This document shows positions 3,224-51,840 of a stretch of DNA of 64,000 nt, piece by piece. Origin of the DNA: an uncultured Candidatus Saccharibacteria bacterium (GTDB lineage Bacteria; Patescibacteriota; Minisyncoccia; Phycocordibacterales; GWA1-40-21); contig CAZIID010000001.1 in NCBI GenBank assembly GCA_964539415.1, positions 11,979 through 75,978 of the forward strand. The letters are read 5' to 3'. The notes beneath the pieces are model-generated. The model ran no database searches. It was not told where the DNA came from and saw nothing but the letters and a program-made list of their open reading frames with translations. How positions within the stretch are numbered: position 1 is the first letter of the stretch; each line of letters opens with the position of its first letter. A program made the translations under genes and the position numbers.

Positions 3224-4831
3224 ATGTCGTTTGCAAAAACTTATAGCGCGCAAACTGTTGGTCTTACCGCAAAAATTATTGATGTTGAAGTAGATCTTTC
3301 AAAAGGACTTCATTCTTTCTCCGTTGTTGGTCTTCCAGATAAAGCAGTTGAAGAATCTAAAGACAGAGTTTCTGCATCTATAAAAAACTCCGGCTATAAA
3401 TCTCCTAAAGCAAAGAACGAAAAGATAACAGTTTTTCTTGCACCTGCTGATATAAAGAAAGAAGGGCCTGCATTTGATGTCGCTATTGCCCTTGCATACC
3501 TTATCGCAAGTGATGAAATAAAATTTGATCCAGAGAAAAAACTTTTCTTGGGTGAACTTTCGCTTGATGGTAAACTCCGAAGAATAACCGGCGTGTTGCC
3601 AATAATTTCCAAAGCAAAAAATGCGGGTTTTAAACAAATATTTTTACCTAAAGAAAATGCCAGGGAAGCGGGACTCATAGAAGGTATAGAAATATATGGA
3701 GCAGGCACTTTACAAGAGATTATTGAACATATTAATGAAAAACCAGCATCCACTTCTGTCCTTCCCGCGAAGGCGGGGATCCAGAGATCGGCAAAATATA
3801 CAGCAAATGAGAAGACCATCAAAAAAATTCTTCTTCAACCAAAAACTTGTGTAGAGAAAAATTGTCTAGAAGAATATGATATTGATTTTGGAGATATCAA
3901 AGGACAGGAAACTGCAAAGAGGGGACTTGAGATTGCCGCAGCGGGTGGACACAACATCGCGATGTTTGGACCCCCAGGAACCGGAAAGACGATGCTCGCA
4001 CGTGCATTTTGTCACATATTACCTCCACTTTCTTTTGACGAACTTTTGGAAATCACTTCAATTCATTCTGTTGCAGGGATTCTAAAAGAAGATTTGATTT
4101 CAAAACCACCGATCAGGTCTCCGCATCACACATCATCTTATGTTTCACTCGTCGGAGGTGGTGCAATTCCAAAGCCCGGCGAAGTGACGCTCGCGCACAG
4201 AGGAGTATTATTCCTAGACGAATTTCCAGAGTTTGATAGGAAAGTCATAGAAGCGCTTCGTGAACCTCTTGAGGAAGGAGAGATAAGTATTTCACGTGCA
4301 AAAGGTTCACACACCTTTCCGGCAAGTTTCATTTTAATCGCCGCAATGAATCCATGCCCTTGTGGGAACTTTGGTTCAAAGAATAAAGAATGTATCTGTA
4401 AACCTACCGATTTACTTCGATATCAAAGGAAGATCTCTGGACCAATAGCAGACAGAATAGATATGTGGGTGGAAGTTTCACAGATTGATTATGATAAGCT
4501 CGGCGAGAAGAGGGAAAAGAAAGAAACACCAGAGATGCAAGGACGAGTCAGTGACGCCCGAGATATACAAAGAAAAAGATTTTTGAACGCCAGCAAAAAA
4601 ATTACGGCAAATAGCGAGATGAATTCAAAAGATGTAAACGAATTTTGCACTATCGGTGAAAAAGAAAAAGAAATTTTAAATACATCAGCAAGAAAGCTAA
4701 ATTTATCAGCGAGAGCATATCACAGAGTGTTAAAACTTGCTCGAACAATAGCAGATCTTGAAGAAAGCCCTGAGATAAAAATGCCTCATATACTTGAAGC
4801 ATTACAATATAGACCAAAGAGACAAGAATAG
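3224..4831 (+). CDS. comM: YifB/ComM family Mg-chelatase-like AAA+ ATPase
   Basis: N-terminal Lon-protease-like domain, Walker A GPPGTGKT, and the C-terminal Mg-chelatase ChlI-like region. Contains an in-frame miniature-repeat insertion at 3758-3782. Confidence 0.8.
   Translation: MSFAKTYSAQTVGLTAKIIDVEVDLSKGLHSFSVVGLPDKAVEESKDRVSASIKNSGYKSPKAKNEKITVFLAPADIKKEGPAFDVAIALAYLIASDEIKFDPEKKLFLGELSLDGKLRRITGVLPIISKAKNAGFKQIFLPKENAREAGLIEGIEIYGAGTLQEIIEHINEKPASTSVLPAKAGIQRSAKYTANEKTIKKILLQPKTCVEKNCLEEYDIDFGDIKGQETAKRGLEIAAAGGHNIAMFGPPGTGKTMLARAFCHILPPLSFDELLEITSIHSVAGILKEDLISKPPIRSPHHTSSYVSLVGGGAIPKPGEVTLAHRGVLFLDEFPEFDRKVIEALREPLEEGEISISRAKGSHTFPASFILIAAMNPCPCGNFGSKNKECICKPTDLLRYQRKISGPIADRIDMWVEVSQIDYDKLGEKREKKETPEMQGRVSDARDIQRKRFLNASKKITANSEMNSKDVNEFCTIGEKEKEILNTSARKLNLSARAYHRVLKLARTIADLEESPEIKMPHILEALQYRPKRQE
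3758..3782 (+). mobile_element. Degenerate copy of the GTCATTCCCGCGAAGGCGGGAATCC hairpin element, inserted in-frame in comM (translated ...SVLPAKAGIQ...)
   Basis: GTCCTTCCCGCGAAGGCGGGGATCC differs by 2 nt from the intergenic copies at 29929 and 48016. Confidence 0.6.
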
Positions 4832-10237: not shown

Positions 10238-10245
10238 AATATTAT

Positions 10246-19230: not shown

Positions 19231-19277
19231 AGATGGTTTGCTTCGTCGCTTTACTCCTCGCAAAGACGGAGGGTAAA
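19231..19277. mobile_element. Miniature repeat unit (AGATGGTTTGCTTCG...CTCGCAAAGACGGAGGG), one member of a family recurring in the window
   Basis: The AGATGGTTTGCTTCG and CTCGCAAAGAC motifs also occur at 25185-25212. Their reverse complements occur at 41210-41280. CTCGCAAAGAC occurs again at 47871-47881. Confidence 0.5.
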
Positions 19278-25146: not shown

Positions 25147-25214
25147 CGTCATTGCGAGGAGGTCTTCCGACGTGGCAATCCAGAGATGGTTTGCTTCGCT
25201 TTCGCTCGCAAAGA
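25147..25214. mobile_element. Composite miniature repeat (GTCATTGCGAGG...CGTGGCAATCC + AGATGGTTTGCTTCG...CTCGCAAAGAC)
   Basis: Shares both sub-units with the copies at 19231, 41210, 47853-47935 and 51676. Confidence 0.5.
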
Positions 25215-25248
25215 CAAAATATTACCCGATACTTTGTATTGGGTAATA

Positions 25249-25713: not shown

Positions 25714-25714
25714 A

Positions 25715-26446: not shown

Positions 26447-26492
26447 TGTCCTCAAATTCTATACGAAAAGAATCCAAAACTCAAGGAAAAGT

Positions 26493-26819
26493 TTATTTTA
26501 AAACACAAACTTCTACCTGTTGCTTTATTTCTGGTATATCTGTGCTAATAAAAGTAGTTTTAACAAAAAAAGCAAAGTCGGTCTGTTCTTTAAATTTACT
26601 CTTATCCATCTTATCTAAAATCGCCCAAAGCCTTCTTTTTAACAAATGTCTTTGTACTGAGGTTTTTGCAACCTTTTTACCCACAACAACCACAAAACGG
26701 CTATTTTTAAAACTATTTGCCATACTTTTAACATAAAAAAACTTAAAATTAGGCCCTTTGCCAAATTTTACTACTTTTTCCATATATTCCTTAGGAATTC
26801 TATATTTTTGAGCTAACAT
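26493..26819 (-). CDS. rnpA: Ribonuclease P protein component
   Basis: Basic protein with FVVVVGKKVAKTSVQRHLLKRRL. Located between rpmH and yidC. Confidence 0.75.
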   Translation of the reverse strand: MLAQKYRIPKEYMEKVVKFGKGPNFKFFYVKSMANSFKNSRFVVVVGKKVAKTSVQRHLLKRRLWAILDKMDKSKFKEQTDFAFFVKTTFISTDIPEIKQQVEVCVLK

Positions 26820-26863
26820 ATGTATATTATAACAAAAAAGAGGCTTAGAGCCCCTTTTTATAT

Positions 26864-27001
26864 TTAAACTGTTGAAAGTCTCTTTCTACCTTTCTGTCTT
26901 CTCTTCTTTAAGACTCTTTTACCATAAGCGGTTCTTGTTCTTGAAAGAAAGCCATGCTTTTTGGCTCTTTTTCTTTTTTTAGGTTGATATGTTTGTGACA
27001 T
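26864..27001 (-). CDS. rpmH: 50S ribosomal protein L34
   Basis: The reverse-strand translation [45 protein letters not shown] matches the L34 consensus. Not present in the supplied ORF track because it is shorter than 60 aa. Confidence 0.85.
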
Positions 27002-27255
27002 AAAGAGAGTATAAATCAAAATACATAAATTGTAAAGCTGATTTTAGCTTTTTCTGTTGACCACAAAACAAAAAAGAATAGGGGATTGGGGCAGTGCAAA
27101 ACAGAGCCTAAGTATATAAAAAATGGTGTAATGAAAAAAATCTTGAAGTATATGTATATACATATATAATAGTAATCAACTTATTCACAGGTTATAAACA
27201 AAAAATATTTTTATTAACATCTTGAACAACTTATAATCTTAACTGTAGATAAATT

Positions 27256-28593: not shown

Positions 28594-28808
28594 TATAGAT
28601 AACTTGTGGATAATCAAAAAATAACCTGTTAATAATATATTGATAAATAAACAGATAATTTTAAACAGTTAGTTATAAACAAAAATATAAACATAGAAAA
28701 AATATAAAAAAATATTTTATGCTTATAAAATAAGGATTAAATAGTTATAAACATATACACACATATAATATTAATAATAGGTTTTTAATAGAAAATAAAT
28801 AAAATACT
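28594..28808. promoter_or_regulatory. Candidate oriC: AT-rich dnaA-dnaN spacer with a perfect DnaA box TGTGGATAA (28605-28613) and several degenerate boxes (TATAGATAA, TTATAAACA x2, TGATAAATA)
   Basis: DnaA boxes seen directly in the sequence. Gene orientation switches across the rpmH/dnaA divergence. Confidence 0.55.
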
Positions 28809-29909
28809 ATGAAATTAGAATCTGTAAAAGATAAATTGAATGTAGCAGTCTCAAAGGCAGGGAGAATAACAAGTAAAAATCTTACATTACCTGTACTTTC
28901 TTGTTTACTTTTAGAGACAAATAAAAATTTTCTAAAGATAAAAGCCACTAACTTAGATTTAGGAGTTGAAATAATGATACCGGTCAAAACAGAGATTGAA
29001 GGTGTTGTAGCAGTTCCTGCACAAGTTATAAACAATTTTTTAAATAATTTAGAGGAAGATAAAAGTGTTTTTATAGAAAAGAAAGAAAATACACTAGAAA
29101 TAAGATCAGAAAGTAGTGTTGCAGAAATAAAGACATTTCCTATAGATGATTTTCCAACAATCCCTTCTGTTGATAATGGTAAAACATTTAAAATACAAGC
29201 TAAGGACTTTTTAAAGGGAATAAGAGCTGTTATCTATAGTTCTTCAACATCAACTGTTAAACCTGAACTTTCAAGTGTCTATATATACTCAGAAGAAGAA
29301 TATCTTGTTTTTGTTGCCACAGATTCTTTCCGTCTTGCAGAGAAAAAAGTTAAAATTAAAAAAACAGCTGATTTTGGAGGAATATTGCTACCTTATAAAA
29401 ATGCCTCAGATATTATTAAACTTTTTGAAGATATAGATGATGAACTTGAAATAAAAGTTTCAAAAAACCAACTTTCTGTTTTTTATAGTGGTTTGTATGT
29501 TGTGTCACGCGTTATTGATGGGGTGTTTCCAGATTACAAACAAATAATTCCAAAAGAAACAAAAACTCAGGTTATTGTTTTGAAACAAGATATTATAAAT
29601 TCTCTTAAATTATCAAATATTTTTTCTGATAGCTTTAATCAGATAAATTTAAAAGTTTTACCAAGTAAAAGAATTTTTCAAGCAAAAACAAAAAATCTAG
29701 ATGTTGGAGAAAATATAAATCAGATAGAGGCAACAACAGAAGGGGAGGATATAGAAATAAACTTTAATCATAGATATATTACAGATTGTCTTTCTTCTAT
29801 AGACTCTGATAGTGTATTTTTAACTTTTAATGGTATGGCTAAGCCACTTGTAATAAAAGGTGTATCTGATAAGAGTTTTACGTATTTGGTGATGCCGATG
29901 AATAGGTGA
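28809..29909 (+). CDS. dnaN: DNA polymerase III beta sliding clamp
   Basis: Three-domain beta-clamp-like sequence located directly after dnaA. Confidence 0.85.
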   Translation: MKLESVKDKLNVAVSKAGRITSKNLTLPVLSCLLLETNKNFLKIKATNLDLGVEIMIPVKTEIEGVVAVPAQVINNFLNNLEEDKSVFIEKKENTLEIRSESSVAEIKTFPIDDFPTIPSVDNGKTFKIQAKDFLKGIRAVIYSSSTSTVKPELSSVYIYSEEEYLVFVATDSFRLAEKKVKIKKTADFGGILLPYKNASDIIKLFEDIDDELEIKVSKNQLSVFYSGLYVVSRVIDGVFPDYKQIIPKETKTQVIVLKQDIINSLKLSNIFSDSFNQINLKVLPSKRIFQAKTKNLDVGENINQIEATTEGEDIEINFNHRYITDCLSSIDSDSVFLTFNGMAKPLVIKGVSDKSFTYLVMPMNR

Positions 29910-29928
29910 TTATTCTCTGTGTCATTCC

Positions 29929-29995
29929 CGCGAAGGCGGGAATCCAGGTTTAATCTAATATAGTCCTGGATCCCAGATCGAGTCTGGGATGACAG
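29929..29995. mobile_element. Miniature inverted-repeat element with TGTCATTCCC / GGGATGACA-like ends
   Basis: TGTCATTCCCGCGAAGGCGGGAATCCAGG...CCTGGATCCCAGATCGAGTCTGGGATGACAG. Its reverse complement matches 47936-48043, which carries an extra nested 40-bp insert. Confidence 0.65.
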
Positions 29996-30064
29996 AAAAA
30001 ACAAAAAGGATTTTCAAGATAAAAAATTGTTCCATTAAGTTTTTATTTTATTTACACTGTTTTT

Positions 30065-34787: not shown

Positions 34788-37700
34788 ATGATGAGCAAAA
34801 AATTCTTTCTTTATTTCATTTTTTTTCTAGTTTTACCTCTTACAACTGCTTTAACGACAAACGCTAGCACTCTTTATTTTAAGGATATTAGTGAAACCCC
34901 TGATTTTGCTTGGGATACGGTTGCAAATTGGTGGACTGATGCAGAGGCAACAATACCCGCTGCAGCCTTACCGTTAAATGGTGACGTTGTTAATATTGAA
35001 AGCAATTTAACTGCTGGCCCATCTATCCCTGTAAGTTTGAGCGTAATAGTGGTAAATAATGTTCTTTACGACGTTGTTTTCACAGGGGCTTCCGGCCCTG
35101 CTATCTTTAATGGTGCCTGTGGTAACGCTGGAACCGTTGATGGTAATGCCGAATTTAATAATGGTAGTAATAATTATGGCACTGTTACGGGGGATGCAAT
35201 TTTTAGTGCAGAATCAAAGAATAATAATGCGGCTCTAGTACAAGGGAATGCAATCTTTTGGGGGACATCGAAAAACCAAGGAACTGTAACTGGGTATGCT
35301 ACTTTTTTTGACTCGTCAATAAACGATCTAGGATCAGTCGGTGGAACCGGAACTTTCAATAATAGTTCAAGTAACAACGGAACAGTGATAGGCGCTGCTT
35401 ATTTTTATGGTAGCTCTATAAGTGAACAGGGGAGTTACTCCGCTGATGTAAATTTTTATGATAGTTCCTATAATAATGCTAGTACAATAACAAGTGCAAC
35501 TTTTAATGGAAGTTCGCGTAATGATATTAATGGAACAATTGGTACTGCTGTTTTTAATGACACGTCTATTAATAATGGAAGTATTAGCATATTAGCAACT
35601 TTCAATGGTAATTCATTAAACACCGGGACTGTTGCCTCGAGTGATTTTTATGGTAGTTCATATAATGATTATAGTGGAAATGTCACTACTGCTACATTCA
35701 ATAACACATCTTTTAATAATTATGGAACAGTTGGCACTGCAATTTTTAATGATTCCTCATTTAACGATGGGTCAGTATCTACTGCTACATTTAATAGTAC
35801 ATCATACAATAATAATGGGACTGTTGAGAATGCGACTTTTAGTGGTCAAGCATATAACGCCGGCACTGTCACCTTTTCTTATGGCACAATGTTTAGAAAT
35901 GATGCTGCAGTTACTACAAATAATGGGACAATTACGACAAACATTGGTTCGATTTCCGGAAATGATGGCACGGTCACTACTAACTCGGGAACAATTGGAG
36001 CACAAAATAATATCGTGGAGACAAACAATGGGACAATTGAAAGTAATAATAATTTTGGTTTTATTACTACAAATAATGGAACTGTCACTATAAACAGTGG
36101 ATCAGTTACGACAAATAGTAATACAGGATCTATACCGGAGATTATTGGAGTGGTAGAAACAAATAATGGTTCAATAGGTCAAACATATAATGGATCTTCG
36201 GTGACTGACAACTATGGAACTGTTTCAAATAATAATGGTGGAACTATAACAAACAATTATGGCACTGTTACAGACAATAGTACTGGAAGTGTCTCAAATA
36301 ACTACGGAACCATAGTCTTAAATGGAAATATAGTAAGTACTAATATGGAGACTGGTATAATTCAAACCAATAGTGCTGGTTCAATATCAGACAATATCGC
36401 TGGTGGCGTTGTTGGTACCAACGACGGATATATATATGGAGGTATATATACAACTTTTGTAGTTAATGATAATGGATATATTGAAGGCGGTTCCTTCTGC
36501 CAATCCCAAGCTGAAACAGGTGGCACCATCAACGCAGGCACCTTCAGCATCTCTAACTCACGCTGTTACAACGCAGCTCCAGGTATATCCATCTCCCCCA
36601 CAAATCTTTCAGTCCTAAATTCTTGGACTCCAGGTCTCTCTTTCGCAACATCAACATCATGTAGCTACAAGATAGACAGTGGTAATTATGTATCACTAAA
36701 CTGTGCATCTCCTTCAATACCTGCACCATCAAACTTTCCACACTTACTGACCATAGTAGCTGAAAACCAGTACAGAACAGCAACATCAACACTCTCTTTC
36801 ATCTACTCCACACTACTCGGCATCTTCACCGGCAGTCTCACCCCATACGCAGTGCCAGCACCTACATACCACACTCTCACAGACATATACAATGTAATCA
36901 TGTCAGGTACACCATCTACTGCAGGAAATCACACACTCTCAACATCACAAACGCCGAACGCAACAACAGGTCACTCAACAAGTGAGATATATGTAAGACT
37001 TGCAAACCTTATAGACGCATCAACTATCAAACCAGGAATCACTTACCTTGGTGTTACAGGAGGAGGAGAGACACCAGATCCAATTGATCTGCCAACATCA
37101 TCTCTTACACCAACAGGGACACCAAATGACAGAACAGGTTTTTCTCTTGAAGATATATACCAACTTGTAAAGAACAATGTCAGAGTCACCTCATCAACAC
37201 ACAGTACCTCAACTTCAGCACATCCTACAGCAACTACCACTCACTCAATTGAAGATGTTTATAGAACACTGACAGCTCTTGTACAGCCGGGGAATATATT
37301 ACTTGGAGATAGTTATTTGGGAGTGGAGGGGGCGTATGTCCCCATGGAAGGTCTAGCTATCCAATACAGGATGAATGATAATACAGCAAGCACTGTTGTT
37401 GTTGATACTTCTGATAATGCAATAAATGCATCTTCCTCACGAAACACTTCTTTGATACATACTGACTCTGGTAATCCGCCATCGCTAAACGGAGCATTTG
37501 CTTTTAATGGCACATCCGATGGAGTTACAGTTCTTGATTCTGCAACTTTTACTAATAATTTTACTATTGCTTTCTGGTATTACGCAGATAGTGATTCAAC
37601 TGGAACTAGAAGCCTATACTGGATTCATGTCCCTGGTTACAATAACTATTTCTCACAATTATCTATGGCACATAACTTAAATGTTTATGGATGGTCAAAT

Positions 37701-38012
37701 TATGATGGAACTAATAATCCATACAATAACAGTATTCCAACAGCTTCTTTGGGTGCTTGGCATTTTGTTGTTGTCGAAAGAAATCTGGCAACTTCTAAGA
37801 TGTCTCTTTATATTGATAATGTAAGTGTCGGAGAATTTGTTGATACAACGATCGGTACTGAACCAGTATACAATGAGCTTTATATAGGCAGAGATGCAGG
37901 CCCAGGATATTTAAAAGGTAAAATGGATGATTTCCGTGTATACGACAGAGTCTTAACAACAGATGAAAAATCTCAGTTGTATAATTCTGGGCTCGGAAAT
38001 GAACTAATATAA
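34788..38012 (+). CDS. Giant secreted surface protein: signal peptide, N/S/T-rich beta-helix-like pseudo-repeats (FNNSS.NNGTV), a conserved central module, and a C-terminal LamG/concanavalin-A-like lectin domain
   Basis: Signal peptide, long repetitive region, and C-terminus (GAWHFVVVERNLATSKMSLYIDNVSVGEF...KGKMDDFRVYDRVLT) typical of LamG-like jelly-roll domains. Paralog of the gene at 42462..45302. Confidence 0.6.
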   Translation: MMSKKFFLYFIFFLVLPLTTALTTNASTLYFKDISETPDFAWDTVANWWTDAEATIPAAALPLNGDVVNIESNLTAGPSIPVSLSVIVVNNVLYDVVFTGASGPAIFNGACGNAGTVDGNAEFNNGSNNYGTVTGDAIFSAESKNNNAALVQGNAIFWGTSKNQGTVTGYATFFDSSINDLGSVGGTGTFNNSSSNNGTVIGAAYFYGSSISEQGSYSADVNFYDSSYNNASTITSATFNGSSRNDINGTIGTAVFNDTSINNGSISILATFNGNSLNTGTVASSDFYGSSYNDYSGNVTTATFNNTSFNNYGTVGTAIFNDSSFNDGSVSTATFNSTSYNNNGTVENATFSGQAYNAGTVTFSYGTMFRNDAAVTTNNGTITTNIGSISGNDGTVTTNSGTIGAQNNIVETNNGTIESNNNFGFITTNNGTVTINSGSVTTNSNTGSIPEIIGVVETNNGSIGQTYNGSSVTDNYGTVSNNNGGTITNNYGTVTDNSTGSVSNNYGTIVLNGNIVSTNMETGIIQTNSAGSISDNIAGGVVGTNDGYIYGGIYTTFVVNDNGYIEGGSFCQSQAETGGTINAGTFSISNSRCYNAAPGISISPTNLSVLNSWTPGLSFATSTSCSYKIDSGNYVSLNCASPSIPAPSNFPHLLTIVAENQYRTATSTLSFIYSTLLGIFTGSLTPYAVPAPTYHTLTDIYNVIMSGTPSTAGNHTLSTSQTPNATTGHSTSEIYVRLANLIDASTIKPGITYLGVTGGGETPDPIDLPTSSLTPTGTPNDRTGFSLEDIYQLVKNNVRVTSSTHSTSTSAHPTATTTHSIEDVYRTLTALVQPGNILLGDSYLGVEGAYVPMEGLAIQYRMNDNTASTVVVDTSDNAINASSSRNTSLIHTDSGNPPSLNGAFAFNGTSDGVTVLDSATFTNNFTIAFWYYADSDSTGTRSLYWIHVPGYNNYFSQLSMAHNLNVYGWSNYDGTNNPYNNSIPTASLGAWHFVVVERNLATSKMSLYIDNVSVGEFVDTTIGTEPVYNELYIGRDAGPGYLKGKMDDFRVYDRVLTTDEKSQLYNSGLGNELI

Positions 38013-41135: not shown

Positions 41136-41168
41136 ACTGTGCTTGATTATATCATAGAAGTTCTCTAG

Positions 41169-41209
41169 GTGTCACATTTTTGAAAAATAGTTTCAAAAAT
41201 GTGACACCT
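41169..41209. repeat. Perfect 18-bp-arm palindrome GGTGTCACATTTTTGAAA...TTTCAAAAATGTGACACC in a divergent promoter region
   Basis: Seen directly in the sequence. Confidence 0.7.
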
Positions 41210-41320
41210 TGTCTTTGCGAGAAGCGAAGCGTTTACCCCGTGAAATTTCTTTGTATTTCATTGGGGACGAAGCAAACCAGTTTTAAGATGGATTACTTCG
41301 GAAGGTCTTGCAGAGACAAA
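41210..41320. mobile_element. Miniature repeat in reverse orientation (GTCTTTGCGAG...CGAAGCAAACCAG) carrying a nested approximately 45-bp GTTTACCCCGTGAAATTTC...GGGGA insert
   Basis: Reverse complement of the 19231/25185 unit. The nested insert matches 47951-47990. Confidence 0.55.
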
Positions 41321-42461: not shown

Positions 42462-45302
42462 ATGAAAAAACAAAACAAAATAATCTTTTCTTTTCTAGTT
42501 TCTATCATCCTATTTTTGGGATTTAGTTTTTCAAATACTTATGCCGCTACTTTGTATTTTAATAATAACACAGGAGATGGTACTTGGGATACTTCTGAAA
42601 ATTGGTGGAGCGATGTATCAATGCAGACCCCCGCTGGATCAATTCCAAGTAATGGAGACGCTGTCTACATTGCCGCAGATATTTGCACAGGACCATCTCA
42701 GACTGTAAATCTGGACCATGTATATGTGGCTGATGAAAGTACTGGAGGAGGAAACTTTACTGTTAATTTGTCGAATGCTGTGAGTGATGTCACTTTTAAT
42801 AATGGTTCCTATAATTACTACGGCAGCGCGATTACTGGAAATGTTACTTTTACCGGCAGTTCTTATCCATTTAATCCTATAAGCCAAGACTTCTTCTACG
42901 GAGGCTCTGTGACTGGTTCAGTAACCTTTACGGCAGACAATGTCACTTTTACTATCGGGGATGGCCAATACTGGAATATGGACACTTCTTCGTGGATTTT
43001 TACAGGAGTAGGTACACCAACGTGGATTTTTAATGGAGGAACTTTAAACAGTACAACTATTAATGGTAATGCTATTTTTAATTTTGGTTCTTATAGTTAT
43101 TCTTCGAAAGTGGATGGTAATGCTACATTTACTGGAACTTCATATTCAAATGATCCGACAGGAGTTGATATGCAAGTTAATGGTTCGGGTGTTACTGGAA
43201 CCGTAACCTTCACCGGGGATAATGTAACTTTTTCAGTCAGTAACTTTGTATGGCAGACTGAGGCGTCATCATGGATTTTTACAGGAGAAGGGACACCCAC
43301 CTGGACCTTTGAAAGTGGGTCAGATTTAAATTATGGAACGATACATGGTAATGCCGTTTTTAAGGCTGGTTCAATTTTTAGTTACGGAACCGTAGTAGGT
43401 GATGTCACTTTTTACGGAAGTTCACAAAATGGAAATAGAATAGAAGGTAGTGCGATCTTTAATGGAAGTTCATATTTAAACGACCCGACAAGGGATCCCA
43501 ATGTGGGAAGTTCGGCGGGAATCACCGGGACAGTTACTTTTACAGGGAATAATGTCACTTTTACATTAGAAAGTGAGCATACTTGGGATTCGGACACATC
43601 ATCATGGATTTTTACAGGTAGTGGTGCTCCTCTATTAATAAACGAAAGTTCGATAAATGGCGGAACTTTTTTTATCCCGATTAGAAATGATAACACTATA
43701 GAAGGTGGAATATTTCATGGTTCGATAACAAATAATAATTATATATATAATGGCAGTTTTTATTCCCTCGTAACAAACAATGGAACAATTTACGGTGGAT
43801 CATTTTGTCAGTCTCAGGCCGAAACAGGCGGTTCAATAGAGGATTATAACGGAGTTACTTTTGGAATAAGCAACCCTCTCTGTTACAACACTCCCACTTC
43901 CATCATTGTTAATTCTCCAACAAATCTTTCCGTCCTTTCTTCGTGGTCCCCATCAATCTCTTTCACTGGCTCTCCAACAACGTGTAAATATAAAATGGAC
44001 AGTGATGACTATGTAACACTTGATTGTAATTCCATGTCTATTCCTACACCAACTGAGTGGCCACACTTACTTACTGTGACAGCAGAAAGTCCATATGGTG
44101 GATCTACTTCAACAATCTCTTTTATCTTCTCTACTCTACTTGGTAATTTCACAGGTTCTCTCTCACCAATCGCATTACCTGCACCAACTCACCACACACT
44201 TGGAGACATATACAACGTAATAGTAGAGGGAACACCATCAGAGACAAATGATCATACTCTCTCAACTACTACAACTCCTACAGCAACCACCACACACTCA
44301 ACAAGTGAGATATACGCACGTCTTGCAAACCTTATTGATGCATCAACTATCAAATCAGGAGTAACATACCTTGGTGTCACAGGAGGAGGAGAGACACCAG
44401 AGCCAATTGAGATTATACCAACATCACTTACACCACTTCTCACACCAAATGACAGAACAGGTTTCTCTCTTGAAGATATATACCAACTCGTAAAGAACAA
44501 TGTAAGAGTTACTTCATCAACTCATGATATTACAAACTCGTCCACTGTCGGTCTAACTCAACATTCTATTGAAGATATCTATAGAACTCTTACTGCTCTG
44601 ATACAGCCGGGGAATGTTTTACTTGGAGAGAGTTATTTGGGGGTGGAGGGAGCTTATGATCCAAGACCGATTGCACAGTGGAAGATGAATGATAATGCTG
44701 GGTCTACAACAGTCCTAGACAGTTCAGGAAATGGACTTGACGGAACTGCAATACAGAATACGAGTGTTATTCATGCGACGGGTGTTGTGGGCGGGGCGTT
44801 GAGTTTTGATGGTGTGAGTGACACTGTATCAATAAATAATTTTACTATGGATGCAGATTGGTCAATTGATGGTTGGATTAAACCGACGATTAATCAAGTT
44901 GGTGCGATAATTTCACAATCAACTGATAGTAATAACAATGCGGTCATATTTCTCCAAGGTGCCAATAATGGAGAACTAACATTTTATGTTAATTCAGAGG
45001 GAAATAACGTCGTAAACGTTGCTTCTGCTGGAGGATTTAATTTGAATGAGTGGAAGCATTTTGTTTTAGCTTATGATGGAATTGATTATCATTTTTATAT
45101 TAATGGTGTTGAAGGGACTACTGTGTATAATAATGCTCAGTCGTGGGGTAGTTATAGTGGAAACTTGGTTCTAGGACATCGTGATATGGATGATAGTTAC
45201 TATTTTGGTGGTTTAATGGACGATGTAAGAGTCTATAACAGAGCTTTATCACAAGAAGAAATCAGTGCACTCTATAATTCAGGTAACGGAACAGAGAATT
45301 AA
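42462..45302 (+). CDS. Giant secreted surface protein; paralog of the gene at 34788..38012 (beta-helix-like repeats, conserved central module, LamG-like C-terminal domain)
   Basis: Shares the N-terminal ATLYF...W.T..NWW.D motif, the approximately 285-aa central module and the LamG-like C-terminus (WKHFVLAYDGIDYHFYINGVEG...LMDDVRVYNRALS). Confidence 0.6.
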   Translation: MKKQNKIIFSFLVSIILFLGFSFSNTYAATLYFNNNTGDGTWDTSENWWSDVSMQTPAGSIPSNGDAVYIAADICTGPSQTVNLDHVYVADESTGGGNFTVNLSNAVSDVTFNNGSYNYYGSAITGNVTFTGSSYPFNPISQDFFYGGSVTGSVTFTADNVTFTIGDGQYWNMDTSSWIFTGVGTPTWIFNGGTLNSTTINGNAIFNFGSYSYSSKVDGNATFTGTSYSNDPTGVDMQVNGSGVTGTVTFTGDNVTFSVSNFVWQTEASSWIFTGEGTPTWTFESGSDLNYGTIHGNAVFKAGSIFSYGTVVGDVTFYGSSQNGNRIEGSAIFNGSSYLNDPTRDPNVGSSAGITGTVTFTGNNVTFTLESEHTWDSDTSSWIFTGSGAPLLINESSINGGTFFIPIRNDNTIEGGIFHGSITNNNYIYNGSFYSLVTNNGTIYGGSFCQSQAETGGSIEDYNGVTFGISNPLCYNTPTSIIVNSPTNLSVLSSWSPSISFTGSPTTCKYKMDSDDYVTLDCNSMSIPTPTEWPHLLTVTAESPYGGSTSTISFIFSTLLGNFTGSLSPIALPAPTHHTLGDIYNVIVEGTPSETNDHTLSTTTTPTATTTHSTSEIYARLANLIDASTIKSGVTYLGVTGGGETPEPIEIIPTSLTPLLTPNDRTGFSLEDIYQLVKNNVRVTSSTHDITNSSTVGLTQHSIEDIYRTLTALIQPGNVLLGESYLGVEGAYDPRPIAQWKMNDNAGSTTVLDSSGNGLDGTAIQNTSVIHATGVVGGALSFDGVSDTVSINNFTMDADWSIDGWIKPTINQVGAIISQSTDSNNNAVIFLQGANNGELTFYVNSEGNNVVNVASAGGFNLNEWKHFVLAYDGIDYHFYINGVEGTTVYNNAQSWGSYSGNLVLGHRDMDDSYYFGGLMDDVRVYNRALSQEEISALYNSGNGTEN

Positions 45303-45379: not shown

Positions 45380-47782
45380 ATGGCAGATAAAAAAGAGAAC
45401 AAAAAACTAGTACTACTCGATGTTCATGCAATCATCCATCGCGCATATCACGCACTTCCTGATTTTGCGACTAGTAAGGGAGAACCAACCGGTGCGCTTT
45501 ATGGTCTCTCGACAATGTTGCTTAAAATTATCTCTGACATAAAACCAGACTACATTGTCGCGTGTTATGACTTACCAAAACCGACTTATAGGCATGAGGC
45601 TTATAAAGACTACAAAGCTGGTAGAGCAAAAGCAGATGATGAACTCGTATCACAGCTTAAAAAGTCATACGACATTTTTAAAGCTTTTGATATTCCAGTT
45701 TATTCAAAAGAAGGTTTTGAAGCTGATGATATGATAGGAACGATCGTTGAACAAGGTAAGAAAGATAAAAACCTAGATATTGTTATTGCTTCGGGAGATA
45801 TGGACACTCTCCAACTTGTAGAAGGGGATAAAGTGAAAGTATATACACTTAAGAAGGGGATTAAAGATACGATTGTCTATAACGAAAAAGCAGTTGAAGA
45901 AAGATTTGGTTTTTCAGCAAGACTTTTGCCAGACTATAAAGGGCTTCGTGGTGACCCATCTGATAATATTATCGGCATAAAAGGAATTGGTGAAAAGACA
46001 GCGAGTGAACTAATACAGAAATTTGGTTCAATTGAAGAAATATATAAAACACTCAAAAAAGATAGAAAGAAACTTTTGGATGCTGGGGTGAAAGAACGAA
46101 TCGTTGGACTTCTTGAAACAAATGAAGAGGAGGCTCTATTCTCAAAAATGCTTGGAACTATAAGGCGAGATGCACCAATAGATTTTGTATTGCCAGAAAA
46201 AACATGGAAAGAAGGATTGGATTTTGAAAAAATAAATAATGTCTGGGTAGAACTTGAGTTTAGAACGTTAGGTTCAAGGCTTAAAACTGTACTAGGTGAA
46301 AAAGTTTCAATTGATGTTGATAACTCAGATGATTTGGTGGCGACGCTACCAAATAAAGAGAGCTTGGGAGCCTCGCTTCCAAGTGAGAAAATTGCTGAAC
46401 TTTCTGTAATACTCTGGTTAATTAACTCTACAATCACAACTCCTAAACTTGAAGATATATATAATTTTACAAAGACAAAAGATGGAGTTTCTGCGGAGAA
46501 GATTTTGTTGGATGAGATAAAAAATAAGGGGCTTTCTGAAGTTTGGGAAAAAATTGAAAAGCCGTTACTTCCAATAATAGTAGAAATGAAAGTGAATGGA
46601 ATAAAAGTAGATTCAAATGCACTCGTAGCACTTTCAAAAGAGTATCATGAAAAACTGTCTGAGCTTGAAAGAAAAATCTGGGAATTGTCTGGTGTAGTTT
46701 TTAATATAAATTCTCCAAAACAGCTTGGTGAAGTTTTGTTTACAAAGCTTGGACTAAAGCCAAAGAATCAAAAGAAGACAAGTAGTGGAGCAATGTCTAC
46801 AAAAGAATCTGAACTAGAAAAAATGCGTGATTTACATCCTGTGATACCTTTTATTTTTGAACATAGAGAATTACAAAAACTTCTTTCTACTTATATAGAT
46901 GTAATACCAAGTCTACTAGACGAAAAACAGAGACTTCATGCAACTTTCTTGCAAGCAGGAACAACGACAGGAAGAATGGCATCAAGTGAGCCAAATTTGC
47001 AAAACATTCCGATTAGAAGTGATCTAGGTAAAAATATAAGGAAGGCATTTATTGCAGAGAAAGGTTTTAAACTTGTTGCTTTTGATTATTCACAAGTTGA
47101 ACTGAGAATTGCGGCTTTTCTTTCTGGTGATAAAAAACTTATAGATATTTTTAAAAAAGGGGAAGATGTTCATACTGCTGTAGCCTCTGAAGTTTTTAAT
47201 GTTCCACTTGATGCTGTAGATAAAGAAATGAGAAGAAGAGCAAAGATAATAAACTTTGGAATAATGTATGGAATGGGAGTAAACGCATTGAAACAAAATC
47301 TAGGTACTGACAGAAAAGAAGCACAGATATTTTATGATGAATATTTTAAAAAGTTTGAAGGATTAGCAAAATATCTTGATAACACAAAAGCAAATGCACA
47401 AAGAAAAGGGTATACGGAAACATTTTTTGGTAGAAGAAGATATTTTGAAGGTTTACAATCTAAGTTGCCTTTTATAAAGGCGATGGCAGAGAGGATGGCT
47501 ATCAATGCGCCAATTCAAGGTACAGAAGCCGACTTAGTGAAACTTGCGATGGTTGAGGTGGATAAATATTTGGAAGGGCAAAAATTGAAAAATAAGGTGA
47601 AGATACTTTTGCAGGTTCATGATGAACTAGTTTATGAAATTTCAGAAGATGTTATCGGAACAGTTGTAAATAATATTAAAAAAATAATGGAAGGTCTGAT
47701 TCCGCCAGAAAAAGTATCAGGAATTGTATGTAAAACAACCATTGAAGTGGGGGATAACTGGCTAGAAATGGAGGAGATTTAG
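45380..47782 (+). CDS. polA: DNA polymerase I (5'-3' exonuclease + polymerase domains; no obvious 3'-5' exonuclease)
   Basis: N-terminal FEN-like 5' nuclease domain. Polymerase motifs A (DYSQVELRI), B (RRRAKIINFGIMYG) and C (QVHDEL). At 800 aa it is too short to include a proofreading domain. Confidence 0.85.
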   Translation: MADKKENKKLVLLDVHAIIHRAYHALPDFATSKGEPTGALYGLSTMLLKIISDIKPDYIVACYDLPKPTYRHEAYKDYKAGRAKADDELVSQLKKSYDIFKAFDIPVYSKEGFEADDMIGTIVEQGKKDKNLDIVIASGDMDTLQLVEGDKVKVYTLKKGIKDTIVYNEKAVEERFGFSARLLPDYKGLRGDPSDNIIGIKGIGEKTASELIQKFGSIEEIYKTLKKDRKKLLDAGVKERIVGLLETNEEEALFSKMLGTIRRDAPIDFVLPEKTWKEGLDFEKINNVWVELEFRTLGSRLKTVLGEKVSIDVDNSDDLVATLPNKESLGASLPSEKIAELSVILWLINSTITTPKLEDIYNFTKTKDGVSAEKILLDEIKNKGLSEVWEKIEKPLLPIIVEMKVNGIKVDSNALVALSKEYHEKLSELERKIWELSGVVFNINSPKQLGEVLFTKLGLKPKNQKKTSSGAMSTKESELEKMRDLHPVIPFIFEHRELQKLLSTYIDVIPSLLDEKQRLHATFLQAGTTTGRMASSEPNLQNIPIRSDLGKNIRKAFIAEKGFKLVAFDYSQVELRIAAFLSGDKKLIDIFKKGEDVHTAVASEVFNVPLDAVDKEMRRRAKIINFGIMYGMGVNALKQNLGTDRKEAQIFYDEYFKKFEGLAKYLDNTKANAQRKGYTETFFGRRRYFEGLQSKLPFIKAMAERMAINAPIQGTEADLVKLAMVEVDKYLEGQKLKNKVKILLQVHDELVYEISEDVIGTVVNNIKKIMEGLIPPEKVSGIVCKTTIEVGDNWLEMEEI
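46332..46354. mobile_element. REP-like hairpin ATTTGGTGGCGACGCTACCAAAT embedded in-frame in the polA inter-domain linker (translated DLVATLPNK)
   Basis: Same palindrome family as the hairpins flanking the RAYT-like transposase at 10246, 10485 and 10963. Confidence 0.6.
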
Positions 47783-47812
47783 AAAGCTAAAATAGTATAA
47801 GAAATTAGTATA

Positions 47813-48043
47813 AGCCTGCCTGCGCAGGCAGGTATGAGAAAGAACTGGATTGCCACGTTCGGAATACCTCACTCGCAAAGACGGAGCAGGGCTTCTTCTG
47901 TCATTGCGAGCGAAGCGTGGCAATCCATCTTCTCTGTCATCCCAGACTTGTTTACTCCGTGAAATTTCATAGTATTTCAACTGGGGATCTGGGATCCAGG
48001 ATTTTATCAACAAACTTTGGATTCCCGCTTGCGCGGGAATGAC
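47813..48043. mobile_element. Cluster of nested miniature inverted-repeat elements (CCTGCCTGCGCAGGCAGG palindrome; GGATTGCCACG...CGTGGCAATCC; TGTCATCCCAGAC...[45-bp insert]...ATCTGGGATCCAGG...GGATTCCCGCTTGCGCGGGAATGACA)
   Basis: Segment 47936-48043 is the reverse complement of 29929-29995 plus an inserted unit that is also found at 41228-41270. Confidence 0.65.
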
Positions 48044-48051
48044 AAAAAATA

Positions 48052-48110
48052 AATTAAAAAACCGAGGTTAAACCTTTCTACAGACTTAAGGTTTAACCTC
48101 GGTTTTTTTG
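48052..48110. terminator. Bidirectional terminator (ACCGAGGTTAAACCT...AGGTTTAACCTCGGT with A/T flanks)
   Basis: 15-bp perfect stem between convergent polA and tig. Confidence 0.7.
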
Positions 48111-48116
48111 TTCAGA

Positions 48117-49181
48117 CTAATTTTTCTGTGCTTCTAGAAAATCAAACACCATTTTGTTTATTAGATTTGATTCAACGTAAATTCTCACTCTGTCTATGGA
48201 AGCATCTTTGTATTGTTCCATAAGATGTTTAACTTCTGTTTCTACTTCTTCTTTTTTGGCTTCAATTTTTTCTGTGATTGCGATGTTGTGAACAATAACT
48301 TGTAGCTTAGCTCTTTTTTCAGCATCATCAGCCCATTCTTTTCTCAATTCTTCCCAAGTCTTTTTGATATGTTTTAGATAGTCTTCTGGTTTCATGCCCA
48401 TTCTTGTGATGTCATCTTCGAACTGAGCTTGCATTTTGTTGAGTTCACTCAACACAAGAGCTTTTGGCATTTCTATTTTTGATTCTTTGATTATCTCTTC
48501 AATAATAGTAAGTTTTTTCTTATCTTGAGCCTTTTGCTCTTTTTCTTTCATTATTCCTTCTTTTATTTTATCTCTAAAATCTGCAATTGTTTTAAAATCA
48601 CCAAGTTTTTTAACAAACTCTTCATTTACTTCTGGCAGATCAAGCTTTTCTTCTTCAGAATGTTTTTCACCTTCTTTATGGGTATGGTTTTGTCTTGCCC
48701 ACATAGCTCTTATTTCTTCTACAGTTTCATCTATTTGTTTTTCTTCTACTGTAATCTTTTCTGGAGTCTTTCCATTTTCTTTTACTGCAATTTTTTTGTA
48801 ATCGCCAAGTTTTACTTCTGGCATTGTTGCAACACGAACCTTGAACTCAAGAGGGGAGCCAATAGCAATCTTTGATATGGAAACATCCGGTCTGCCGACA
48901 AAATTCGGAGCTTTCTCAGCTATTATTTCCATCGCACAGTCATTTATAGCAAGCTCTAGTGCCTCTTCAAGAAGCCCTAGCTCACCAATTTTTTCTAAAA
49001 GCATTTTTTCTGGAACAAAGCCTTTTCTAAAGCCTGGCATTTCTGCTACTTCTTTCATTCTCTTGAGGGCCTTGTCTTTATAAGGTTTAATATCAGCTTC
49101 TTGTATTTCTACAGTTATTTCAACTTCACAATCTGGGAGTTTCTTGCTGTCCTTTATCTCGTATATTTTTTTGTTTGTCAT
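48117..49181 (-). CDS. tig: Trigger factor lacking the central PPIase domain
   Basis: N-terminal ribosome-binding domain with the MPGFRKGFVP signature, the linker, then C-terminal domain motifs (LPEVNEEFVKKLG). About 100 aa corresponding to the FKBP domain are absent. Confidence 0.65.
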   Translation of the reverse strand: MTNKKIYEIKDSKKLPDCEVEITVEIQEADIKPYKDKALKRMKEVAEMPGFRKGFVPEKMLLEKIGELGLLEEALELAINDCAMEIIAEKAPNFVGRPDVSISKIAIGSPLEFKVRVATMPEVKLGDYKKIAVKENGKTPEKITVEEKQIDETVEEIRAMWARQNHTHKEGEKHSEEEKLDLPEVNEEFVKKLGDFKTIADFRDKIKEGIMKEKEQKAQDKKKLTIIEEIIKESKIEMPKALVLSELNKMQAQFEDDITRMGMKPEDYLKHIKKTWEELRKEWADDAEKRAKLQVIVHNIAITEKIEAKKEEVETEVKHLMEQYKDASIDRVRIYVESNLINKMVFDFLEAQKN

Positions 49182-51421: not shown

Positions 51422-51840
51422 ATTGTTTTTTATAATTTTTTTAAAAAAATAAGCTCGCTTTCGGCGAACTAACAGTATTACTATTATATACCTAATGACT
51501 TTTAAAGTCAATATCCACAGTAAAAGTGTATATATTTAGCCGTTTTAAGTAGTTTTACATAGGCTAAGCCTATGTAGACAGGAAAAGTGGTCAACGTGCC
51601 ACGTTGGCCACTTTATTATAAAATATTACAACACACATAATCGAATACCAAGGTCCGACCTTGGTAGGTACTCTCGTCATTGCGAGTGAGGTGTGGCAAA
51701 CCAGTTCTTCCTTATACTCATACCCCAGTAGTAGAAGAATCAGAATTCTTCACTACAGGGCAGGCTAATATTTATACTATTTTCAACTTATCCACCCTCT
51801 CAATTTGCAATCCAAACATTATCTTATATAATATACTCAT

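What the first reader, a model, noticed from the sequence alone, without database searches (positions are those of the whole stretch)
47813..48043. Nested miniature inverted-repeat element family at seven or more loci, one in-frame inside comM
Several short palindromic modules recur in different combinations and orientations at 3758, 19231, 25147, 29929, 41210, 47813 and 51676. The modules are GTCATTCCCGCGAAGGCGGGAATCC, GTCATTGCGAGCGAAGCGTGGCAATCC, AGATGGTTTGCTTCG...CTCGCAAAGAC, GTCATCCCAGAC/GTCTGGGATGAC and a 45-bp GTTTACYCCGTGAAATTTC...GGGGA unit. Segment 29929-29995 is the reverse complement of 47936-48043, except that the latter contains the 45-bp unit as a nested insertion. The same nested unit is inserted into the 41210 copy. 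The ends resemble TGTCATYCCC terminal inverted repeats. A degenerate 25-bp copy lies in-frame in comM, adding ...SVLPAKAGIQ... to the protein. Most copies are next to terminators or divergent promoters.
Basis: seen in the sequence. Interest (0 to 1): 0.55.

Follow-up and report, generated by a model that had tools for sequence, protein, structure and literature searches.

The report
Ssn-type hairpin repeats in a CPR bacterium
The repeats are real and vary between related genomes, but they belong to a recently described class of oriented DNA hairpins (NTS/SRM) that flank small GIY-YIG "Ssn" single-strand nuclease genes, seen here in an ultra-small Patescibacteria genome, so this is a new example of a known kind of element.

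Summary
Seven loci in the window, six intergenic and one in-frame in comM, hold about 15 short modules. All are built as (T/C)GTC-AT-stem-loop-stem-AT-CC(A)G.

Module A (29920-29947) fits the published Neisseria NTS consensus at 27 of 28 positions. A covariance model built only from hairpins that flank Ssn-like GIY-YIG genes in other genomes recovers both A copies, the comM copy and module D (E 5e-12 to 2e-6). It recovers the B modules only marginally, through their flanks, and the C modules not at all.

The modules occur as tail-to-tail inverted pairs, and these 70-115 bp composites are the repeated units. A 35-36 nt hairpin (E) is inserted precisely, without target duplication, into the loops of two host modules.

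Orthologous spacers in related genomes are empty or hold a different composite, so the elements are gained and lost. No target-site duplication was found. No ssn gene lies in the 82.6 kb of this genome that could be read. However, 22 of 25 Patescibacteria ssn-like loci, three of them Paceibacterota, carry the same modules.

Verdict: these are NTS/SRM-class repeats, a new member of a known kind. "MITE" describes their form only. Interest is modest.

The parts
3757..3784 (+). Degenerate A-type (NTS-like) module TGTCCTTCCCGCGAAGGCGGGGATCCAG, in frame in the comM linker (..SVLPAKAGIQ..)
   Evidence: Covariance model R1 gives 32.7 bits, E 2.4e-7. It fits the NTS consensus at 25 of 28 positions. The same site is occupied in relative L250 and is absent in L251, L252 and the ~73%-identity orthologs.
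19231..19267 (-). Single C module (GTCTTTGCGAGGAGTAAAGCGACGAAGCAAACCATCT on the - strand), in a 66-nt spacer between two + strand genes
25148..25215 (.). Tail-to-tail composite of B(+) 25148-25181 and C(-) 25184-25215, lying between convergent genes
   Evidence: R1 scores the B module at 16.6 bits, E 0.019, through its flanks only. A second copy, about 90% identical by eye (not computed), lies in the same genome at L342:8368-8440.
29920..29996 (.). Tail-to-tail composite of A(+) 29920-29947 (TGTCATTCCCGCGAAGGCGGGAATCCAG) and D(-) 29968-29993, separated by a 16-nt spacer, downstream of dnaN
   Evidence: the only strict hit to the SRM search pattern; shuffles give 0.05; z -4.2 and -3.0. R1 gives 48.1 bits for A and 29.4 bits for D.
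41211..41317 (.). Composite of C(+) 41211-41278 and a degenerate C'(-) 41286-41317, between the divergent pilB-like gene and orf129
   Evidence: The whole composite is absent from the orthologous spacer of L004.
41232..41266 (+). Nested 35-nt E hairpin (TTTACCCCGTGAAAT..ATTTCATTGGGG), inserted between G^A in the loop of the C module
   Evidence: One search shows the un-nested C copy reads ..AAGCG^ACGAAGC.. at this point. Searches give the fold and the match to the other E copy. No target duplication.
47783..47882 (-). B(-) module 47847-47882 plus a 'TTATACT-repeat' tail 47783-47846 that reaches the polA stop codon. The tail carries a nested GC hairpin CCTGCCTGCGCAGGCAGG at 47815-47832.
   Evidence: The same B-plus-tail composite, without the GC hairpin, lies at L004:5648-5720, a non-orthologous site.
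47900..47926 (+). B(+) module GTCATTGCGAGCGAAGCGTGGCAATCC
   Evidence: It differs by 2 nt from the commonest B variant found in unrelated contigs. R1 gives 12.8 bits, E 0.26.
47936..48043 (.). Tail-to-tail composite of D(+) 47936-47997 and A(-) 48019-48043. It is homologous to 29920-29996 in the opposite orientation.
   Evidence: R1 gives 44.9 bits for the A module. The composite is also found in four metagenome contigs in other genomic contexts.
47951..47986 (+). Nested 36-nt E hairpin, inserted between G^A of the D loop (CTTG^A)
   Evidence: (un-nested D loops read CTTGA or CTCGA). Un-nested E copies occur in the same genome (L343, around 17622) and in relative L006.
51676..51795 (+). B(+) module 51676-51702 plus a tail that holds a 46-nt hairpin (51722-51767) and ends in TTATACTATTTT, between the divergent nusA and an Lcl_C-domain gene
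   Evidence: Absent from the nusA-pilB spacers of L004 and L006.

Best explanation
The seven loci hold clusters of short, oriented hairpin repeats of the NTS/SRM class. Each module reads 5'-(T/C)GTC | AT-stem-loop-stem-AT | CC(A)G-3'.

In Neisseria, a ~95-aa GIY-YIG nuclease, SsnA, binds this motif only as single-stranded DNA and cuts just upstream of the palindrome. The motif flanks ssn genes as motif(+)-ssn-motif(-). The window holds the gene-less form of that cassette: tail-to-tail inverted pairs of 70-115 bp. These pairs behave as the copied unit, are gained and lost between close relatives, leave no target-site duplication, and tolerate or attract further small hairpins in their loops.

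Shown here:
- Sequence and structure membership of the A and D modules and of the comM copy.
- Presence/absence polymorphism, and occupation of one spacer by different composites in different genomes.
- Tight linkage of the same modules to Ssn-like genes in Patescibacteria, including Paceibacterota.

Inferred:
- This genome encodes, or recently encoded, an Ssn-family nuclease outside the window that recognises A and D whenever the DNA is single-stranded, for example during replication or after uptake of transforming DNA.
- That enzyme, or host ssDNA repair acting at the hairpins, is responsible for their spread.
- As in Neisseria, cutting of incoming single strands at these intergenic sites would shorten recombination tracts. 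This organism carries comM and a type IV pilus cluster.

The B and C modules share only the GTCAT...ATCCA flanks. They may answer to a different, unidentified partner.
For: 1. The NTS consensus is CGTCATTCCCGCGMAVGCGGGAATCYRG, and the published SRM search pattern comes from PMC11893778. Window 29920-29947 fits the consensus at 27 of 28 positions and is the only hit to the SRM pattern, against 0.05 expected.

2. I reproduced the motif-ssn-motif architecture in five unrelated contigs and in Patescibacteria MAGs of 31% GC.

3. Among the 80 best genomic relatives of a Patescibacteria Ssn-like protein, 72 have a GTC-hairpin-CC module within 200 nt and 46 have one on both sides. Modules upstream lie on the gene's strand 61:17, and modules downstream lie on the opposite strand 67:13. 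Module density is 4.9 per kb next to the gene against 0.12 per kb elsewhere. Of the 25 CPR loci, 22 carry modules within 350 nt of the gene. The Paceibacterota locus L268 carries a 25-mer identical to window 29921-29945.

4. Covariance model R1, built only from those foreign ssn-flanking hairpins, scores the window copies at 48.1, 44.9, 32.7 (comM) and 29.4 (D) bits, with E from 5e-12 to 2e-6.

5. Roughly 35 of about 150 ssn-flanking modules have loops of 22-51 nt, so nested inserts are a family trait.

6. Variability:
- The polA-tig, dnaN, pilB and nusA spacers of relatives lack the elements.
- The spacer after the UPF0102 gene is empty in two relatives, holds an A'/A pair in a third, and holds a B/C composite in the window's own genome.
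- Relatives carry R1 hits at other sites.
Against: - No Ssn-like ORF was found in the window, in 18.6 kb of flanking sequence of the same genome, or in about 170 kb from close relatives.
- B and C, the most numerous modules here, fail the SRM pattern. R1 scores B at E 0.019-0.26 and does not find C. A B-type module lies next to only 1 of 80 ssn-like genes. B and C fold weakly.
- Membership of the CPR proteins in the cd10448 family rests on size, the Pfam GIY-YIG domain and shared architecture. It was not tested by comparison with Neisseria SsnA.
- Nobody has shown that Ssn mobilises these repeats, even in Neisseria.
- The effect on transformation is extrapolated from a single organism.
Confidence: 0.72

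Rival explanations
1. These are classical MITEs: deletion derivatives of a DDE-transposase insertion sequence, mobilised in trans through their terminal inverted repeats and leaving target-site duplications.
For: The composites are 70-115 bp, non-coding and end in inverted TCTGTCAT / ATGACAGA. They occur as whole-unit copies at several sites and are polymorphic between relatives.
Against: No direct repeat flanks any composite or the nested E unit, from reading the flanks. Single modules also occur alone (19231, 51676, comM). No IS with matching ends was seen. Each 'TIR' is itself a complete hairpin that recurs in many phyla and flanks GIY-YIG genes.
Confidence: 0.06
2. These are REP/BIME elements mobilised by the IS200/IS605-like Y1 (RAYT-like) transposase whose gene lies at window 10231-10952.
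For: The window holds a RAYT-like gene. Its intact ortholog, L252:15311-15982, hits Pfam Y1_Tnp at 29.3 bits and NCBIfam REP_Tyr_transpos weakly. Insertion of hairpin DNA without target-site duplication, and mosaic clusters in alternating orientation, are typical of REP/BIME.
Against: That gene is flanked by a different palindrome, TTGGTAGCGWCGCYACCAA, which contains the REP-type GTAG. It is not flanked by any of modules A-E. The gene is frameshifted here, and also in an independent assembly. A and D are linked to GIY-YIG genes in 72 of 80 loci.
Confidence: 0.1
3. B and C, and perhaps E, form a separate hairpin family with its own unidentified protein partner. They merely share insertion sites with the Ssn-type A and D modules. 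This partly rivals the best explanation and partly refines it.
For: B and C fail the SRM pattern and the R1 model core. A B-type module is adjacent to only 1 of 80 ssn-like genes. B-type pairs are abundant on their own in contigs of 30-74% GC and in Novosphingobium, Methylobacterium and cyanobacterial replicons.
Against: B and C share the GTCAT..ATCCAG flanks, which Chenal et al. found to matter for cutting (the three bases 5' of the palindrome) and for binding (the C just 3' of it). A B-like copy lies about 70-95 nt upstream of ssn in two Patescibacteria loci. B is found paired only with B/C-type modules, in the same tail-to-tail geometry as the A/D pairs.
Confidence: 0.35
4. They are conserved functional sites, either transcription terminators or operator-like binding sites, rather than mobile DNA.
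For: All intergenic copies lie at gene ends or between divergent promoters (and reading). A and D are stable hairpins.
Against: They are absent from the orthologous spacers of relatives. No T-run follows the stems, and separate terminator hairpins lie beside them, for example 48056-48108 and 41167-41209. One copy lies inside a coding region. Rfam gives only sub-threshold noise.
Confidence: 0.04

Closest known systems
NTS / SRM repeats with SsnA GIY-YIG ssDNA nucleases (Chenal et al., Nat Commun 2025, PMC11893778)
   Same: The 28-nt motif is nearly identical (27 of 28 positions). It is an oriented hairpin with a conserved GTC on the 5' side and C on the 3' side. Copies are numerous and mostly intergenic. 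Inverted copies bracket small GIY-YIG genes in relatives. The repeats form clusters.
   Different: No ssn gene was seen in the part of this genome that could be read. The host is a Patescibacteria (Paceibacterota) genome, a group not mentioned in the main text of that paper. Stem variants (D) and the flank-only relatives B and C fall outside the published SRM pattern. The hairpin-in-loop nesting and the in-frame genic copy are not described there.
Neisseria dRS3 repeats and intergenic mosaic elements (NIMEs)
   Same: Two copies meet the dRS3 core ATTCCC-N8-GGGAAT exactly. The modules form mosaic arrays in intergenic DNA.
   Different: The phylum is different. The 50-150 bp RS units between dRS3 pairs were not seen here. 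The link to phage integration was not examined.
REP/BIME elements with RAYT transposases
   Same: Short extragenic palindromes in alternating orientation that form mosaics, with no target-site duplication and presumably single-strand DNA chemistry.
   Different: The 5' signature is GTCAT rather than GT[AG]G. The RAYT-like gene in this window carries its own, different palindrome.
Rickettsia palindromic elements (RPEs)
   Same: Palindromic repeats that also insert in frame into housekeeping genes, adding a short peptide in a tolerant region (review PMC10969869). According to Chenal et al., Rickettsia is among the genomes richest in SRMs.
   Different: RPEs are about 100-150 bp, whereas the genic copy here is a single 25-28 nt module. 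My recollection that RPE ends resemble the B module could not be tested with these tools.
Prokaryotic MITEs (for example Correia elements, ERIC)
   Same: Size, inverted ends, non-coding nature, dispersal and presence/absence polymorphism.
   Different: No target-site duplication and no parent IS. The ends are self-contained hairpins shared across phyla.

Membership tests
NTS/SRM (Ssn-related motif) repeats | Sequence fits the NTS consensus CGTCATTCCCGCGMAVGCGGGAATCYRG, or the SRM pattern HGTCWYN(0-2)YYVSBRHN(0-5)WNVSBRGN(0-2)RNCYNB | tested here: met
   29920-29947 fits at 27 of 28 positions and is a strict hit to the SRM pattern, against 0.05 expected. 48018-48046 fits at 26 of 28 and the comM copy at 25 of 28. 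B, C and D do not match the pattern.
NTS/SRM (Ssn-related motif) repeats | Matches a sequence-plus-structure profile of hairpins that flank ssn-like genes | tested here: met
   Model R1 was built from 102 foreign ssn-flanking modules. It scores the A copies at 48.1 and 44.9 bits, the comM copy at 32.7 and D at 29.4, with E no higher than 2e-6. B is marginal (E 0.019 and 0.26) and C is not found.
NTS/SRM (Ssn-related motif) repeats | Forms a hairpin as a single strand, with oriented non-palindromic flanks | tested here: met
   A and D have 8-bp perfect stems and z-scores of -3.0 to -4.9. B and C have only 5-6 bp stems and z near 0. The GTC and CC flanks are invariant in the profile alignment.
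NTS/SRM (Ssn-related motif) repeats | A cd10448-type small GIY-YIG (ssn) gene in the same genome, typically bracketed by the motif | tested here: inconclusive
   None was found in the 64 kb window plus 18.6 kb of the same genome, or in about 170 kb of relatives. In contrast, 22 of 25 CPR ssn-like loci, including three Paceibacterota loci, carry the modules. The rest of the genome could not be read.
NTS/SRM (Ssn-related motif) repeats | Bound and cut by the cognate Ssn only as single-stranded DNA | not testable with these tools
   Needs biochemistry.
Classical MITE | Target-site duplication flanking the element | tested here: not met
   The flanks of both D/A composites, both B/C composites, L341 and both nested E units show no direct repeat.
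Classical MITE | Terminal inverted repeats shared with an autonomous IS | tested here: inconclusive
   Inverted ends are present. No IS with those ends was found in any sequence read. The only gene-bearing relative is the motif-ssn-motif cassette.
REP/RAYT | The repeats flank the RAYT gene and carry a 5' GT[AG]G | tested here: not met
   The RAYT-like gene at 10231-10952 is flanked by TTGGTAGCGWCGCYACCAA, not by modules A-E.
Neisseria dRS3 | ATTCCC-N8-GGGAAT | tested here: met
   Two exact matches, at 29924 and 48021, against 0.11 expected.
Rickettsia palindromic elements | Sequence homology to an RPE family (RPE-1 to RPE-10) | not tested
   No Rickettsia RPE sequences were available. The resemblance is from memory only.

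The most novel reading that the evidence does not exclude
The modules form a self-assembling, self-nesting system of mobile DNA hairpins. In this reading an Ssn-type GIY-YIG nuclease cuts single-stranded DNA at one hairpin, and the released hairpin, or pair of hairpins, is re-joined without target duplication into exposed single-stranded sites. Such sites would include the loops of other hairpins and tolerant linkers of genes such as comM. That would make Ssn the engine of a new, GIY-YIG-based transposition pathway. In naturally competent, DNA-scavenging Patescibacteria it would also provide a way to mark and fragment incoming DNA.
Probability: 0.15. Interest if true: 0.7.

Novelty: new member of a known kind. 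Interest (0 to 1): 0.35.

Why it matters
The finding places the NTS/SRM-Ssn system, so far characterised experimentally mainly in Neisseria, in the Candidate Phyla Radiation. These organisms have tiny genomes and are thought to depend on DNA uptake.

It also offers clean natural examples that bear on how these repeats spread:
- One spacer is occupied by different composites in sister genomes.
- Hairpins are inserted precisely, without target duplication, into the loops of other hairpins.
- One copy is tolerated in frame in a competence gene.

For annotation, it explains the spurious 'VIPAKAGIQ'-type ORFs and the variable linkers.

Tried and rejected
- Rfam: the gathering-threshold scan of the whole window found only two tRNAs. 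The E-value scan of 47700-48150 gave sub-threshold noise.
- GIY-YIG gene in the window: a six-frame pattern scan and Pfam scans of small ORFs next to the modules found none.
- Generic 'GTC-stem-CC' hairpin scan of the window: too noisy with one mismatch allowed, so I replaced it with the covariance model.
- Search for a protein partner of the B modules: clustering ORFs next to 119 B-bearing viral contigs gave only phage structural genes. Genes bracketed by B pairs were also phage genes.
- Full-text searches for B-type sequences or their peptide translations: no papers.
- PDB and NCBIfam searches with the Ssn-like proteins: nothing informative.
- Supplementary tables of the Ssn paper: not held.
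- C-type pattern in viral contigs: no hits.
- Metagenome scan for the D/A composite: only 4 hits, none next to an ssn gene.
- Target-site duplications from filled-versus-empty site comparisons: the spacers are too diverged at 83-90% protein identity to define exact junctions.

Full report
**Source of the window**

The window has about 34% GC. It comes from a metagenome-assembled Patescibacteria genome. Its DNA polymerase I is found on JGI contigs. The best named homologs of polA and comM are from 'Candidatus Paceibacterota'. The closest relatives available have 90%, 84% and 83% PolA identity. They are L008/L251 (GCA_964416925.1), L004/L250, and L006/L252.

**The observation**

GTCWTTGCGAG occurs 7 times against 0.02 expected. 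ATTCCC-N8-GGGAAT occurs twice against 0.11 expected. A blastn-short search with all modules found no further locus in the window.

Read on a common strand, all modules share one plan: (T/C)GTC, then AT-stem-loop-stem-AT, then CC(A)G.

- A is GTCATTCCCGCGAAGGCGGGAATCC, at 29921 on the + strand and 48019 on the - strand, with a degenerate copy at 3758.
- D is GTCATCCCAGA-loop-TCTGGGATCC, at 29968 (-) and 47936 (+).

As single-stranded DNA, A and D form perfect 8-bp stems with z-scores of -3 to -4.9. B and C have only a 5-6 bp outer stem and fold no better than shuffled sequence.

**Architecture**

The modules sit mostly in tail-to-tail inverted pairs:

- B→←C at 25148-25215
- A→←D at 29920-29996
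- C→←C' at 41211-41317
- D→←A at 47936-48043

The pair, spacer included, is the repeated unit. 47933-48046 is the reverse complement of 29920-29996 apart from one insert. The B/C pair recurs, about 90% identical by eye, 0.3 kb beyond the window start (L342:8368-8440).

A third composite joins a B module to a tail of TTATACT repeats. It occurs at 47783-47882 (-), at 51676-51795 (+), and at a non-orthologous site in relative L004.

Three nested insertions are visible:

- A 36-nt E hairpin at 47951-47986 lies in the D loop. Un-nested D loops read CTTGA or CTCGA, and the insert lies at CTTG^A.
- A 35-nt E copy at 41232-41266 lies in a C loop. The un-nested copy reads AAGCG^ACGAAGC.
- A 17-18 nt GC hairpin at 47815-47832 lies in the composite tail.

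None of these has a target-site duplication. Un-nested E copies occur in the same genome (L343, around 17622), in relative L006, and in unrelated contigs.

**Identity**

A full-text search for the motif led to Chenal et al. 2025 (PMC11893778). They define the Neisseria Transformation Sequence, CGTCATTCCCGCGMAVGCGGGAATCYRG, which contains the older dRS3 repeat. They generalise it as Ssn-related motifs (SRM). They also show that the ~95-aa GIY-YIG protein SsnA binds the hairpin only as ssDNA and cuts just upstream of it. The three bases 5' of the palindrome matter for cutting, and the C just 3' of it matters for binding. ssn genes are typically bracketed by the motif, and SsnA lowers transformation by NTS-bearing DNA.

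Window 29920-29947 fits the NTS consensus at 27 of 28 positions. It is the only hit to the SRM pattern in the window, against 0.05 expected.

I checked the link independently in four steps.

- The exact A motif saturates a scan of viral-collection contigs whose GC ranges from 32% to 72%. In five of those contigs it lies immediately 5' of a ~95-aa GIY-YIG ORF, with an inverted copy immediately 3'.
- A consensus query found real homologs, including two from Patescibacteria MAGs. On those contigs (31% GC) the gene is embedded in a mosaic of A modules, modules with other stems (ATTATCGGGC, ATTCCCAAC), and a B-like copy.
- A scan of one genome per species with that Patescibacteria protein gave more than 549 relatives. 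Of the best 80, 25 are CPR (Paceibacterota, Parcubacteria, Taylor-, Nomura-, Portnoy-, Moran- and Saccharibacteria, among others). Of the 80, 72 have a GTC-hairpin-CC module within 200 nt and 46 have one on both sides. The orientation bias is strong: upstream modules lie on the gene's strand 61:17, and downstream modules on the opposite strand 67:13. Density is 41-fold higher next to the gene than elsewhere. The Paceibacterota locus L268 carries the identical 25-mer found at window 29921.
- A covariance model (R1) built only from 102 of these foreign flanking hairpins retrieves both A copies (48.1 and 44.9 bits), the comM copy (32.7 bits) and D (29.4 bits), all with E no higher than 2e-6. It retrieves two B copies only through their flanks (E 0.019 and 0.26) and no C copy.

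Roughly 35 of about 150 ssn-flanking modules have loops of 22-51 nt. Nesting is therefore a general property of the family.

**Mobility**

In relatives, the polA-tig spacer is 62 nt (L004) or holds unrelated sequence (L006, L008). The tig terminator is conserved while the modules are absent. The dnaN, pilB and nusA spacers of L004 and L006 also lack the modules.

The clearest case is the spacer after the UPF0102 gene, which can be anchored by a hairpin conserved in all four genomes. It is empty in L252 and L251. It holds an A'→←A pair in L250. It holds the B→←C composite in the window's own genome.

Relatives carry R1 hits at other positions. The D/A composite also occurs in four metagenome contigs in unrelated contexts.

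**The comM copy**

The copy lies in the linker between the ChlI/Lon-like N-domain (aa 21-145) and the AAA+ domain (aa 221-425). This linker varies widely in length and sequence among 18 orthologs.

The module is present at the same codon position in L250 (GTCATCCCCGCGAAGGCGGGGAACC, giving VIPAKAGNQ). It is absent from L251, L252 and all ~73%-identity orthologs, which have unrelated sequence of different length there. It is thus an in-frame hairpin in a tolerant linker that is now decaying, of the kind known from Rickettsia palindromic elements.

**What is not settled**

- No Ssn-like gene lies in the window, in 18.6 kb of adjoining sequence, or in about 170 kb from close relatives. The rest of the genome was out of reach.
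- B and C, the commonest modules here, are only flank-level relatives of the SRM profile. They are rarely next to ssn-like genes (1 of 80).
- B-type modules are very widespread in their own right. They saturated the viral scan across 30-74% GC, usually as tail-to-tail pairs 19-32 nt apart. They also occur in Novosphingobium, Methylobacterium and cyanobacterial replicons. I found no partner protein for them.
- Whether Ssn itself moves the repeats is unknown, even in Neisseria.

**Rival explanations**

- Classical MITE: no target-site duplication, no parent IS, and the 'TIRs' are autonomous hairpins.
- REP/RAYT: the window does hold a frameshifted Y1/RAYT-like gene (10231-10952). It is flanked by its own, different palindrome, TTGGTAGCGWCGCYACCAA.
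- Terminators or operators: the modules are not conserved at orthologous sites, have no T-run, and lie beside separate terminators.

**Verdict**

The best description is NTS/SRM-class hairpin repeats arranged as gene-less, MITE-like inverted pairs with hairpin-in-loop nesting, in a Paceibacterota genome. This is a new member of a kind described in 2025. It is of modest interest, with a small chance that the nesting and the insertion without target duplication point to a GIY-YIG-driven ssDNA transposition pathway.

Noticed in passing
window 10231-10952, with palindromes at 10250-10268, 10487-10505 and 10971-10989: A frameshifted IS200/IS605-type Y1 (RAYT-like) transposase gene. It is 72-81% identical to an intact 223-aa ortholog at L252:15311-15982 (Pfam Y1_Tnp 29.3 bits). 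Perfect palindromes TTGGTAGCGWCGCYACCAA flank it on both sides, and a third copy lies inside its own coding sequence. The frameshift is also present in an independent assembly (L342). This is a second hairpin-repeat system, separate from the finding.
   Followed up: partly
window 46334-46352 (inside polA): A fourth copy of the RAYT-type palindrome lies in frame in the hypervariable linker of DNA polymerase I, encoding ..DDLVATLPNK... It is shared only with the closest relative (P0001). More distant orthologs have a gap or unrelated sequence there. It is a second case of a hairpin repeat tolerated inside a housekeeping gene.
   Followed up: partly
L250:5967-6040 and 6460-6533; L342:8368-8440: The UPF0102 (YraN-like predicted endonuclease) gene is bracketed by SRM-type pairs on both sides in relative L250. 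In the window's own genome a B/C composite follows it. The downstream spacer is empty in two other relatives.
   Followed up: partly
window 486-802: There are three related ~60-87 nt units. Two of them (578-664 and 716-802) are 100% identical. They contain a hairpin around CATAATCAGAATT and end in a tRNA T-arm-like GGCTTCGAATCC. They lie just upstream of tRNA-Arg (869-941) and overlap a called 121-aa ORF with no Pfam hit.
   Followed up: no
window 34788-38012 and 42462-45302: Two large paralogous genes for surface-type proteins (Laminin_G_3 domain in the second) share a 274-nt block at 82% identity and many internal Asn/Thr-rich repeats (families D1-D17).
   Followed up: no
window 25249-29909: The gene order is jag/khpB-like (R3H+KH domains) and neighbouring genes on the - strand, followed by dnaA (27256-28593) and dnaN (28809-29909) on the + strand. 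This suggests that the replication origin lies near 26.9-27.2 kb. The modules show no strand bias around it, because they occur in inverted pairs.
   Followed up: no
window 51722-51767; L341:4714-4758: A 46-nt hairpin, CCCCAGTAGTAGAAGAATCAGAATTCTTCACTACAGGGCAGG, inside the tail of the B composite recurs at 87% identity in a relative's contig. This is another small hairpin family that occupies the position held by the GC hairpin in the 47815 copy.
   Followed up: no
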